In this document: positions 1 through 3,790 of the stretch, piece after piece
How positions within the stretch are numbered: position 1 is the first letter of the stretch
How the letters are laid out: each line of letters starts with the position of its first letter
Assembly (NCBI RefSeq): GCF_006345805.1
Contig: NW_021830296.1
Location: forward strand, 1-5,018
Direction of reading: 5' to 3'
Source of the DNA: Octopus sinensis
Lineage: Eukaryota
Length of the DNA stretch: 5,018 bases
Position numbers and translations under genes: made by a program
Notes under the pieces: model-generated
Told to the model about the DNA's origin: nothing
The model's input: the letters and a program-made list of their open reading frames with translations, nothing else
The model's database searches: none

Positions 1-9
1 TATGTAGAA

Positions 10-124
10 GCATTCGTCCTCCAGTTTTTCTAAGCCCTGTAAAAGAACTCGGAAGTTTGGGCCTCCGATCAGGCTTTTCGCAAAACCCTTAAAGCCAGGA
101 ACTTTTCAGCACACCTTCCCCCTA
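10..124 (-). mobile_element. Tc1/mariner-derived non-autonomous element fragment (one TIR plus transposase C-terminal remnant)
   Basis: The minus strand reads TAGGGGGAAGGTGTGCTGAAAAGTTCCTGGCTTT (124->91), a mariner-type TIR starting at a TA. It is followed by KA*SEAQTSEFF / (frameshift) LQGLEKLEDEC, which resembles the mariner transposase C-terminal W..Q..EFF..G(I/L)EKL..R(W/C) segment. No second TIR is present in the window. Confidence 0.6.
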
Positions 125-127
125 CAT

Positions 128-272: not shown

Positions 273-320
<48 letters not shown>

Positions 321-467
321 CTATATATATATATTATATATATATAAGTATAAATATGTATATTTATATATATAATTATATATATATAGTATATATATAT
401 ATATATATATTTATATATTATATTATCTATATATATTATATCTATAATAATATATATATATATATAT
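273..467. repeat. Degenerate (TA)n microsatellite
   Basis: About 195 bp of near-pure TA dinucleotide; source of the YI-repeat ORFs. Confidence 0.95.
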
Positions 468-530
468 TGATAAAAATGGTGAGACAACAAAAGAAAGAAG
501 AACCTTGATACTATGTAAATAGAGGAATTC

Positions 531-688
531 ATCTGTAAATGTAATATGTGACAATTATTCGGTAGCCATGATAAAATTCTGATGGCCAGAAAACTGAAGA
601 GATGGCGGCGTGGATTTCCACCTCGGCATCCGAAACTCGGAGTTTTATCATGGCTACCGAATAATTGTCACATATTACATTTACAGAT
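531..688. repeat. Perfect 46-bp inverted repeat (531-576 / 643-688) with a 66-nt spacer
   Basis: ATCTGTAAATGTAATATGTGACAATTATTCGGTAGCCATGATAAAA at 531-576 is the exact reverse complement of 643-688. It extends to 52 bp (531-582 / 637-688) with 2 mismatches. Confidence 0.97.
583..656 (+). ncRNA. Type I hammerhead ribozyme motif (minimal, probably dimer-dependent; this copy partly degenerate)
   Basis: Core CUGAAGA at 594-600 and GAAA at 632-635. Stem II: GATGGCGGCGTGGA / TCCACCTCGGCATC (601-630; 2 mismatches, 1 GU, extra C631). Short near-palindromic stem III: ACTCGGAGT (635-643). NUH triplet GUU at 642-644. Stem I: TGGCCAGAAAA (583-593) pairs with TTATCATGGCTA (645-656) with one mismatch and one bulge. 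Confidence 0.72.
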
Positions 689-1142: not shown

Positions 1143-1548
1143 TACTCTTTTACTCTTTTACTTGTTTCAGTCATTTGACTGCGGCCATGCTGGAGCACCG
1201 CCTTTAGTCGAGCAAATCGACCCCGGGACTTATGCTTTGTAAGCCCAGTACTTATTCTATCAGTCGCTTTTGCCGAACCGCTAGGTGACGGGGACGTAAA
1301 CACACCAGCATCGGTTGTCAAGCAATGCTAGGGGGACAAACACAGACACACAAACACATACACACACACACATATATATATATACATATATACGACAGGC
1401 TTCTTTCAGTTTCCGTCTACCAAATACACTCACAAGGCATTGGTCGGCCCGGGGCTATAGCAAAGACACTTGCCCAGATGCCACGCAGTGGCCGAACCCG
1501 GAACCATGTGGTTGGTTAGCAAGCTACTTACCACACAGCCACTCCTGC
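1143..1548 (-). mobile_element. tRNA-derived SINE (octopus-type), copy 1
   Basis: Reverse complement of 3396-3785, with about 11 substitutions and a few small indels outside the internal microsatellite (manual alignment). Box A TGGCTGTGTGG is intact; box B is damaged (GGTTCGGCCAC). It has an internal (TA)/(TG) tract and a 3' tail of (GTAAAAGA)2. Confidence 0.92.
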
Positions 1549-2081: not shown

Positions 2082-2269
2082 AATAATGATGATAATGATG
2101 ATAATGATGATGACGACGATGATGATGACGATGATGATGATCATCATCATCATGATGACGATGACGATGACGTTGACGATGACGATAACGATGTGATGAT
2201 GATGATGACGACGATAACGATGACGATGATGATGATAATGACGATGACGTTGACGATGACGATGACGAC

Positions 2270-2301
<32 letters not shown>

Positions 2302-2421
2302 CGATGACGATGATGATGATGACGATGACGATGACGTTGACGATGACGATGACGATAACGATGTGATGATGATAACGATGACGATGATGATGATGACGAT
2401 GACGTTGACGATGACGATGAC

Positions 2422-2454
<33 letters not shown>
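2082..2454. repeat. Compound trinucleotide microsatellite (GAT/GAC/AAT)n
   Basis: About 370 bp of GAT/GAC units with AAT, AAC and GTT variants; source of the poly-His/Ser/Ile ORFs on the minus strand. Confidence 0.97.
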
Positions 2455-3316
2455 ACAATGGAAGGGACTACACAATCAATTCCACGTAGCTGCAACAGAA
2501 GTTGCTGGGAAAGTAGGTGAGATTGGCTGATAAAAGAAACACCAATAAAAGAGATCGAGAGCACTTTACTAGTATCACAGGACCAAGCTTTGGTCAGGAA
2601 CTGGAGGACCAACGTTAAGAATACTTAATGTCTCCGCTGTACCGTATCTGCAATAGAGCGTATGAAACCATTGCCCACATCATGAACGAATGCCCTACAC
2701 TTGCCCCAAACCATTACAAGTTGTGGCGACATGACCAGGTAGCGAAAGTGCTACGTTGGAAGCTGTGCGTAAAGGGGACGGGGTCTTGATTGACGCAAGA
2801 CGTGGTATGAGAACTAACCGCAGAGTGGAAGTGTCGGAGACTAGCAAAATCCTCTGGGATTTCCCAATCCAAACGGAACAGGGCCTAGAGCATAAAAGAC
2901 CGGACCTAGTGGTGGTGGACAAGATGCACCACATATGCTATATAGTTGACGTTGCATGCCAATTTGACGCACGAATAGTCAAGAAGGAAGGCGAAAACAT
3001 AGATAAATACAACCCTGTTAGTTTGGAAATAGCCCTGCTATGGAAAATGGAGAAGACGGAGATAGTGCCTATTATTGTTCGGTCCTTGGGAACAGTATCA
3101 GAAGGCATGGAGGTGAGTATAACGAAAATTGGAATAGAGTGCCCAGTAGAAATGTTACAAAAGTTTTGCCTCATTGGTACAGTCAGAGTAATCAGGAAAT
3201 GTATTAGTTTAAAAGAACGAATAGCATGATACTACACGCTGCGAGTAGTAAGCCCCGTTACGCATGCATGACTCAAGGAGCTTCAACAAAACATGTGATG
3301 AAGAGAAAATAATAAT
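2455..3316 (+). mobile_element. 5'-truncated R4/Dong-like (R2-group, RLE-type) non-LTR retrotransposon including 3' UTR
   Basis: Post-RT C-terminal motifs occur in the expected order, followed by a stop at 3227-3229, a ~80-nt 3' UTR and an (AAT)3 end at 3308-3316. The 5' end is lost at the triplet array. Confidence 0.85.
2459..3229 (+). pseudogene. Disrupted retrotransposon ORF C-terminus: CCHC zinc knuckle and restriction-like PD-(D/E)xK endonuclease
   Basis: Read across frames: WKGLHNQF (2459); *DWLIKETPIKEIESTLLVSQDQAL (2518); YRICNRAYETIAHIMNECPTLAPNHYKLWRHDQVAKVLRWKLC (2640; first Cys->Tyr, RHD at 2727-2735); WYEN*P (2803); KILWDFPIQT..RPDLVVVDK..IVDVA..KE.ENIDKY..VPIIVRSLG..LQKFCLIGT. 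At least 4 frameshifts plus in-frame stops. Confidence 0.9.
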
Positions 3317-3392: not shown

Positions 3393-3790
3393 GGCGCAGG
3401 AGTGGCTGTGTGGTAAGTAGCTTGCTAACCAACCACATGGTTTCGGGTTCAGTCCCACTGCGTGGCATCTTGGGCAAGTGTCTTCTGCTATGGCCCCGGG
3501 CCGACCAATGCCTTGTGAGTGGAATTGGTAGACAGAAACTGAAAGAAGCCTGTCGTATATATGTATATATTTATGTATGTGTGTGTGTTTGTGTGTCTGT
3601 GTTTGTCCCCCTAGCATTACTTGACAACCGATGCTGGTGTGTTTACGTCCCCGTCACTTAGCGGTTCGGCAAAAGAGACCGATAGAATAAGTACTGGGCT
3701 TACAAAGAATAAGTCCCGGGGTCGATTTGCTCGACTAAAGGCGGTGCTCCAGCATGGCCGCAGTCAAATGACTGAAACAAGTAAAGAGAG
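3393..3790 (+). mobile_element. tRNA-derived SINE (octopus-type), copy 2, apparently full length
   Basis: Begins GGCGCAGGAG, with Pol III boxes A and B, a central body, an internal (TA)/(TG) tract at ~3555-3600, 3' hairpins GTCGA-tttgc-TCGAC (3721-3735) and CAGTCA-aa-TGACTG (3761-3774), and a GA-rich tail. Near-identical to copy 1. Confidence 0.93.
3403..3456 (+). promoter_or_regulatory. Internal RNA polymerase III type 2 promoter (box A and box B) of the SINE
   Basis: Box A-like TGGCTGTGTGG at 3403-3413 and box B-like GGTTCAGTCCC at 3446-3456, with tRNA-like spacing. Confidence 0.8.

What the first reader, a model, noticed from the sequence alone, without database searches (positions are those of the whole stretch)
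583..656. Hidden type I hammerhead ribozyme in an ORF-less repeat
Seen: both catalytic boxes (CUGAAGA, GAAA), an NUH site (GUU, predicted cut after 644) and all three stems in type I order, with an unusually long stem II (~14 bp). Established: minimal type I hammerheads with very short palindromic stem III occur in Penelope-like elements and retrozymes and can cleave as dimers. Inference: a self-cleaving RNA of a cephalopod PLE or retrozyme-like family that is probably unannotated. ACUCGGAGU can pair with a second copy with one central G-G mismatch. This copy seems to have lost one G at the base of stem II and may be impaired.
Basis: partly seen in the sequence, partly recalled or inferred. 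Interest (0 to 1): 0.8.

Follow-up and report, generated by a model that had tools for sequence, protein, structure and literature searches.

The report
Hammerhead ribozyme of Hydra-type jumping gene
The stretch has the sequence pattern of a small self-cutting RNA and is the tail end of a truncated copy of a known kind of jumping gene, so it is real but mostly ordinary, and this particular copy is predicted to be unable to cut.

Summary
The motif is real (1 of 1000 shuffles): CUGAAGA 594-600, GAAA 632-635, palindromic stem III, predicted cut after 644. It lies in the 3' repeat of a Penelope-like retroelement (PLE) of the Hydra clade. Eight longer copies join it to an RT/GIY-YIG frame, and a sister subfamily has 717-codon open frames with the Hydra motifs. 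Hydra-clade hammerheads with this stem III are published, and so is one from another octopus family (Craig 2021, File S2). This family is not in that table. The scan noted a Hydra hammerhead before in another genome. The window copy is a 5'-truncated, inverted-repeat insertion. It did not lose a G of its own, because the whole lineage lacks it. It has a broken stem I pair, and its inverted arm buries the cut site in a -97 kcal/mol hairpin, so it is predicted inactive. Insertions show no pile-up of 5' ends at the cut (2 of 97). One twist: the youngest subfamily carries U4C in the catalytic core (2077 exact hits against 85 with U) while its protein stayed under purifying selection. Cleavage was not tested.

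The parts
467..576 (-). Inverted, 5'-truncated copy of the element's 3' end, including the roughly 65-70 nt 'tail' found on this arm only; it stops 2 nt upstream of the cut site and holds no catalytic core
   Evidence: the tail continues the element in same-strand copies
577..688 (+). Direct, 5'-truncated copy of the element's 3' repeat (pLTR), starting 68 nt upstream of the cut and ending at the short 3' end
583..593 (+). Stem I, 5' strand; A591 (family U) breaks a pair, A588 (family G) keeps one
594..600 (+). Catalytic box CUGAAGA (C3-A9)
   Evidence: sequence
601..631 (+). Stem II: 11 predicted pairs, two mismatches, 4-nt loop, one spare C before GAAA (family-wide)
632..635 (+). Catalytic box GAAA (G12-A15.1)
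   Evidence: sequence
635..643 (+). Palindromic stem III with one central G; 3 bp plus a triloop as monomer, 8 bp as dimer (predicted)
   Evidence: same palindrome in published Hydra-clade hammerheads
642..644 (+). GUU triplet; predicted cut after 644
   Evidence: sequence
645..656 (+). Stem I, 3' strand
531..688 (.). 52-bp inverted repeat formed by the two arms; predicted -97 kcal/mol hairpin that buries the cut site in a read-through RNA
273..467 (.). (TA)n microsatellite, the likely insertion target
   Evidence: 90 of 97 sampled arms have a microsatellite within 130 nt downstream

Best explanation
This is the minimal type I hammerhead motif in the 3' repeat of a Hydra-clade Penelope-like retroelement, left in the window as a short truncated insertion that is predicted to be catalytically dead. 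Shown: the motif, its place a few hundred to about 1000 nt behind an RT/GIY-YIG frame in longer copies, the Hydra protein motifs, the (TA)n context, the two alternative 3' ends and the inverted arms. Inferred mechanism: in an intact element transcribed from a tandem array, two copies pair through the stem III palindrome, probably with help from the element's protein, and cut slowly after GUU. The protein nicks (TA)n and starts reverse transcription just downstream of the ribozyme, at either of two sites about 70 nt apart, which gives the tail on one arm. The templates were mostly uncut RNA, and early termination left short ORF-less copies like this one. In this copy one stem I pair is broken, no partner lies in tandem, and any read-through RNA folds the cut site into the long hairpin.
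For: Chance. Link to the ORF: eight A-type copies carry the endonuclease end 372-994 nt upstream on the same strand (one of them mis-sorted as C by my filter). 19 of 20 regions picked by protein alone have the motif behind the frame, and L122 is pLTR-ORF-pLTR. Hydra motifs in L121 match Craig 2021 section 11. Of 4 metagenome loci found by protein, the 2 that include the end of the frame (45% identical) both carry a hammerhead of the same build with other stem letters. On 16 chosen rows, 97.2% of stem I and III cells pair and 6 of 9 pairs change on both sides. Between subfamilies A and B the ribozyme region differs at 13 of 81 positions, against 0.43 per synonymous site in the ORF. Predicted inactivity of this copy. 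Uncut templates: 2 of 97 arms end within 2 nt of the cut, and the truncation rate is flat across it. This agrees with Frangieh 2024.
Against: No cleavage or expression data. Folding energies ignore Mg2+, tertiary contacts and protein. The rows are related, most were picked by a pattern holding the core, most two-sided changes come from the two distant relatives, and stem II was not tested. Even intact A copies have a low predicted monomer share (7e-4) and a competing longer self-duplex. The youngest subfamily has a non-canonical core, so cleavage may not be what is conserved in this lineage. Pfam and PDB gave no RT match for the frame (only GIY-YIG at E 0.11 for L071), so the clade call rests on motifs and by-eye comparison, not on a tree with reference elements.
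Confidence: 0.85

Rival explanations
1. In this lineage the hammerhead is a decaying or repurposed structure. Its fold or DNA sequence is kept for another job (promoter, protein-binding landmark beside the reverse-transcription start), and cutting is no longer needed.
For: Stepwise changes from older to younger types: GUA to GUU, one purine lost at the base of stem II, a new mismatch in stem II, then U4C and C11.1U in B. B is nested in A with short tips and has 2077 exact C-type hits against 85 U-type. 0 of 27 gap-free B copies picked by protein have a canonical core, and a full B element holds no other canonical core. The ORF is under purifying selection (pN/pS 0.17). Core mutants did not affect insertion in vitro in an Anolis PLE (Frangieh 2024).
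Against: The stem III palindrome and the proximal stem I are unchanged between A and B. A natural U4C variant kept enough activity for viroid infectivity (Perreault 2011 discussion). B copies were picked as best protein hits, which favours young copies.
Confidence: 0.35
2. It is a non-autonomous retrozyme, a short tandem repeat expressed as a circular RNA.
For: Most copies are short and ORF-less, and type I hammerheads mark animal retrozymes (bioRxiv 721605 passages).
Against: Copies are nested 5' truncations of a PLE. 56 of 97 arms have an inverted partner within 550 nt and only 3 of 97 a same-strand neighbour.
Confidence: 0.03
3. The window copy is itself an active or domesticated ribozyme acting on a host transcript.
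For: Core and triplet are intact, as in 40 of 56 sister arms.
Against: It has a broken stem I pair. The predicted competent share is 6e-6 alone and 5e-14 with the upstream arm. Core positions in sister copies depart from the commonest letter at 0.03, similar to non-CpG stem positions (0.03-0.06), as expected for neutral decay.
Confidence: 0.04
4. The motif is a chance match inside a repeat.
For: No Rfam hammerhead match.
Against: 1 of 1000 shuffles. It sits at the same place and has the same build in distant relatives and in published Hydra elements.
Confidence: 0.01

Closest known systems
Hammerheads of Hydra-clade PLEs (Craig et al. 2021, PMC8557442, Files S1 and S2), e.g. Hydra-2_aMil, Hydra-1_aJap, Penelope-16_HM
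   Same: Type I; near the 3' end; 4-bp palindromic stem III with one central base (the same ACUC-N-GAGU in five listed families, with G in the centre in two); GUU, GUA or GUC triplets; (TA)n targets; protein motifs.
   Different: Longer stem II (11 pairs, against 3-7 in the table); a spare C on the 3' side of stem II; a roughly 900-nt low-complexity 3' region in subfamily A; U4C in subfamily B (every Hydra row of the table begins with CUGA).
Hydra-1_Obim (Octopus bimaculoides; same paper)
   Same: Hydra clade, about 2.5 kb, (TA)n, hammerhead with CUGAAGAG, a one-base loop III and a GUU triplet.
   Different: A separate family: 29 of the first 44 residues identical to L121 by eye; stems I, II and III differ in sequence.
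Minimal hammerheads of metazoan PLEs (Cervera and de la Pena 2014, PMC4209133)
   Same: Long helix II, short helix I, palindromic helix III, single motifs in truncated copies, pairs on opposite strands 100-700 bp apart; low activity reported, seen only in multimers or with a lengthened helix III.
   Different: They describe an unpaired base between A9 and 10.1; types A-C here lack it and have the spare base on the other side (the older D type has it).
PAc hammerhead of the Anolis Poseidon element (Frangieh et al. 2024, PMC11167929)
   Same: Two 3' ends that define a tail; no sign of ends at the cut site.
   Different: Different clade; there the ribozyme overlaps the ORF start and was shown to be protein-assisted, which is untested here.
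Animal (non-LTR) retrozymes (bioRxiv 10.1101/721605)
   Same: Type I hammerhead in a dispersed repeat.
   Different: No short head-to-tail arrays; part of an autonomous element.

Membership tests
Type I hammerhead ribozyme | CUGANGA and GAAA boxes, A15.1-U16.1, NUH triplet | tested here: met
   594-600, 632-635, GUU 642-644
Type I hammerhead ribozyme | Stems I and III with compensatory change | tested here: met
   6 of 9 pairs change on both sides, 97.2% of cells paired, 16 related rows; the window copy breaks one stem I pair
Type I hammerhead ribozyme | Stem II closed by G10.1-C11.1, with covariation | tested here: inconclusive
   G601 can pair with C630 or C631, leaving a spare C; covariation not counted because registers differ between types
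Type I hammerhead ribozyme | Self-cleavage | not testable with these tools
   folding predicts the competent fold is rare for this copy
Penelope-like element, EN+ | Single ORF with RT and C-terminal GIY-YIG endonuclease | tested here: met
   717-codon frames with YKDD and YVG motifs; weak Pfam GIY-YIG hit E 0.11; Pfam and PDB otherwise blank
Penelope-like element, EN+ | pLTRs, inverted 5'-truncated copies, tail on one end | tested here: met
   L122 pLTR-ORF-pLTR; 56 of 97 arms inverted; two 3' ends
Hydra clade | RWK and DKT motifs | tested here: met
   RWK at 37, DKT at 114 of the L121 protein
Hydra clade | [quoted passage not shown] | tested here: met
   linker at 557, CxxC at 660, CxH at 691; no Cys between the two core motifs
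Hydra clade | Under 3 kb, (TA)n insertion, hammerhead near the 3' end | tested here: met
   B unit about 2.55 kb; 90 of 97 arms next to a microsatellite; A units are longer by their 3' region and no full-length A copy was found
Hydra clade | Placement in the RT tree with named Hydra elements | not tested
   reference proteins were seen only as supplement text; compared by eye
Neptune or Nematis clade | CX2-5CxxC linker and CCHH motif | tested here: not met
Animal retrozyme | Short head-to-tail arrays, non-autonomous | tested here: not met
   3 of 97 arms with a same-strand neighbour; linked ORF
Animal retrozyme | Abundant circular RNA | not testable with these tools
   only contigs were available

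The most novel reading that the evidence does not exclude
This lineage is a natural time series of a ribozyme losing its catalytic job. The youngest subfamily spread to more than 2,000 copies with a U4C core and no second hammerhead while its protein stayed under selection, so self-cleavage is dispensable for PLE transposition in vivo. The hammerhead fold survives as a landmark next to the RNA start and the reverse-transcription start; the cluster of 5' ends just upstream of stem I may mark that RNA start.
Probability: 0.3. Interest if true: 0.55.

Novelty: new member of a known kind. Interest (0 to 1): 0.27.

Why it matters
As a ribozyme it is ordinary: one more hammerhead of a clade in which they are described as universal, in a family not in the published table. 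The value lies in the subfamily series. Why PLEs carry hammerheads is open (Craig 2021 discussion; Frangieh 2024). Here a GUA type, two GUU types and a U4C type of one lineage can be assayed side by side from natural copies. If the youngest, abundant type does not cut, that is genomic evidence that cutting is not needed for spread.

Tried and rejected
Rfam scans: no hammerhead match. Pfam on the frame and two homologues, and PDB on the frame: nothing useful. My first clade guess, Neptune, was dropped after reading the motif definitions. The sequence directly upstream in L032 (oriented 1-760) is unrelated flank, not the ORF. Expression: no RNA holder listed (RNA status only guessed, contigs only). 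Four runs laid on L121 cannot show ends, strand or level, so I draw nothing from them. For the record, guessed-RNA run X1 held one contig joining the tail end to the 5' leader, which fits a genomic tandem as well as a circle. Test for in vivo cutting through insertion ends: negative, 2 of 97 arms within 2 nt of the cut. The reference L034 was mis-anchored; the analysis was redone with six references. The A counts were mixed with loci picked by a core pattern and were redone. In the tree L279 is an unrelated neighbour, L087 is an A copy mis-sorted as C, and L290, L307 and L308 are B-like copies with U4; only 8 of 40 B rows were used. Lunse et al. 2017 was not held, so I know it only as cited in PMC6765202. 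No tRNA genes in the window. Earlier scan notes by sequence: none.

Full report
OBSERVATION. The motif is in the sequence as described: CUGAAGA at 594-600, GAAA at 632-635, the palindrome at 635-643 and H17 at 644. A descriptor asking for both boxes and three stems finds only this site on either strand. It hits 1 of 1000 dinucleotide shuffles, and none with a 4-bp palindromic stem III. Rfam does not recognise it. Predicted stem II has 11 pairs with two mismatches, and one C is spare before GAAA.

THE FAMILY. The window comes from a 2.72-Gb animal genome (G000), likely a cephalopod judging by the nearest published element; no tool names it. A DNA search gave 1558 first-look candidates, of which 40 were scored and 30 fetched. 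These have the same layout: (TA)n, an inverted arm with a tail, a direct arm, microsatellite; the query favoured that layout. An exact pattern for core plus stem III gives 981 hits, and a pattern downstream of the cut gives 1364; both controls gave 0. From the second search I took 90 loci holding 97 distinct arms (not all of the 100 listed places were fetched). Of these 97, 56 have an inverted partner within 550 nt, 3 a same-strand neighbour and 90 a microsatellite downstream. The arms have two main 3' ends about 70 nt apart. This is the tail signature of Penelope-like elements, which Frangieh et al. trace to two internal reverse-transcription starts (PMC11167929; parts 1-2 of 4 read).

THE PARENT ELEMENT. 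Walking upstream through longer copies leads through about 900 nt of low-complexity sequence into a broken frame with RT and GIY-YIG-like motifs. Eight A-type copies hold the endonuclease end and the hammerhead on one strand. A protein search of the genome gave 11778 candidates, 150 scored. Of 20 regions fetched around hits, chosen for long open frames, 19 have the motif behind the frame, and three have 717-codon frames 0.8-2.4% apart. L122 reads pLTR-ORF-pLTR. The protein has RWK, DKT, a CxCX5C linker, CxxC and CxH, and no CCHH cysteines. These are the marks of the Hydra clade in Craig et al. 2021 (PMC8557442; abstract, section 11 and passages read). One of 113 homologues is from Apostichopus japonicus, a named Hydra host. 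Pfam and PDB did not recognise the frame, and I built no tree with reference elements.

WHAT IS KNOWN. File S2 of that paper (read in full) lists Hydra hammerheads with the same build, five of them with ACUC-N-GAGU. File S1 has four octopus rows, one of them Hydra: Hydra-1_Obim, with its own hammerhead. That is a different family (29 of the first 44 residues identical by eye). Cervera and de la Pena 2014 (PMC4209133; parts 1-2 of 4) describe such minimal motifs in truncated PLE copies and on opposite strands, with low activity in multimers. My paper searches for hammerhead with octopus or cephalopod, octopus with Penelope and Neptune, U4C and degenerate or dispensable (listing only) turned up no description of this family or of a U4C core in a PLE. 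Subscription papers, Repbase, Dfam, Lunse 2017, bioRxiv supplements and one image page of the Craig supplement were not seen and may hold it.

IS THE STRUCTURE SELECTED? Four metagenome loci were found by protein alone. Two include the end of the frame, and both carry a hammerhead with other stem letters, ACAC-N-GUGU and GUA or GUC; the other two are fragments that showed none. On 16 chosen rows, stems I and III pair in 97.2% of cells, 6 of 9 pairs change on both sides, and all slid controls are lower. One octopus pair steps A-U, G-U, G-C across types. The rows are related, most were found by a core pattern and stem II was left out, so this is supportive, not a probability. Between types A and B the 81-nt ribozyme region differs at 13 places, against pS 0.43 in the ORF over 311 codons. 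Among inserted A copies the core decays like other non-CpG positions, and 40 of 56 keep it whole.

THIS COPY. It differs from the commonest A letter at two of 69 positions, 588 and 591; the second breaks a stem I pair. The missing G at the base of stem II is lineage-wide, and only older E-type copies have it. The predicted share of the cleavage-competent fold is 6e-6 alone, 5e-14 with the upstream arm, 7e-4 for intact A copies and 0.08-0.10 for relative L186. As a symmetric double hammerhead the window copy lies 8.6 kcal/mol above the best two-strand fold, intact A copies 2.4, B 13.8 and L186 zero. These numbers ignore Mg2+, tertiary contacts and protein. I infer that the copy is dead.

NO TRACE OF CUTTING IN INSERTIONS. 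If cut RNA were the template, 5' ends would pile up at the cut. Only 2 of 97 arms end within 2 nt of it. The loss rate per base is 0.006 around the cut and through the ribozyme, 0.031 at 58-95 nt upstream (46 of 97 arms, plus the window copy at 68) and 0.006 beyond. The cluster could mark the RNA start, a pause behind the folded ribozyme, or microhomology at T runs; I cannot tell which.

THE TWIST. A tree of the endonuclease DNA, drawn with distant relatives, puts C and D outside, A next and B nested within A with short tips; several inner forks are weak. B carries CCGAAGA: 2077 exact hits against 85 with U, and 26 of 27 gap-free copies picked by protein. A full B element has no other canonical core on either strand. 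Its ORF diverged from A under purifying selection (pN/pS 0.17). Against a simple decay story, B keeps the stem III palindrome and the proximal stem I, and Perreault et al. note a viroid U4C variant that is slow in vitro yet sufficient in vivo (PMC3088659; section 8 and passages).

VERDICT. A real hammerhead motif of a Hydra-clade PLE, a new family member of a known kind, in a copy predicted to be inactive. Interest 0.27, mostly for the subfamily series as test material.

Noticed in passing
L121:6135-6211 (+) and subfamily B genome-wide: The youngest subfamily has U4C in the core, C11.1U and weaker stems, yet intact 717-codon frames and 2077 exact hits.
   Followed up: yes
97 arms in L190-L279: 5' truncations cluster 58-95 nt upstream of the cut, just before stem I (46 of 97); cause unknown, possibly the RNA start.
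   Followed up: partly
L186:252-318 and 3011-3077; L187:347-410: Full or tandem Hydra-type elements in metagenome contigs with cleaner hammerheads; in L186 the hammerhead fold is the predicted minimum-energy fold.
   Followed up: partly
window 1157-1548 (-) and 3396-3785 (+): Two copies, about 96% alike, of one repeat in opposite orientation; it resembles an octopus SINE (recalled, not tested; ARAGORN found no tRNA gene).
   Followed up: no
window 2735-3229 (+): A 164-codon frame that looks like the C-terminal restriction-like endonuclease of a non-LTR element (motif recalled; Pfam gave only a weak DUF7817 hit).
   Followed up: partly
window 1-125: End of another repeat, also seen by eye in L064; it resembles a mariner-type terminal repeat (recalled).
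   Followed up: no
window 2086-2454: Long (GAT/GAC)n microsatellite, about 62 units of 6 nt.
   Followed up: no
L179:3146-4496, L108, L135:989-1437, L151, L141, L279, L018: Fragments of more distant Hydra-like families (29-60% protein identity) met by chance in flanks, so the genome holds several Hydra lineages.
   Followed up: no
L053 and L054: A whole inverted-repeat unit duplicated 363 nt apart, giving two same-strand hammerheads close together, each inside its own hairpin.
   Followed up: no
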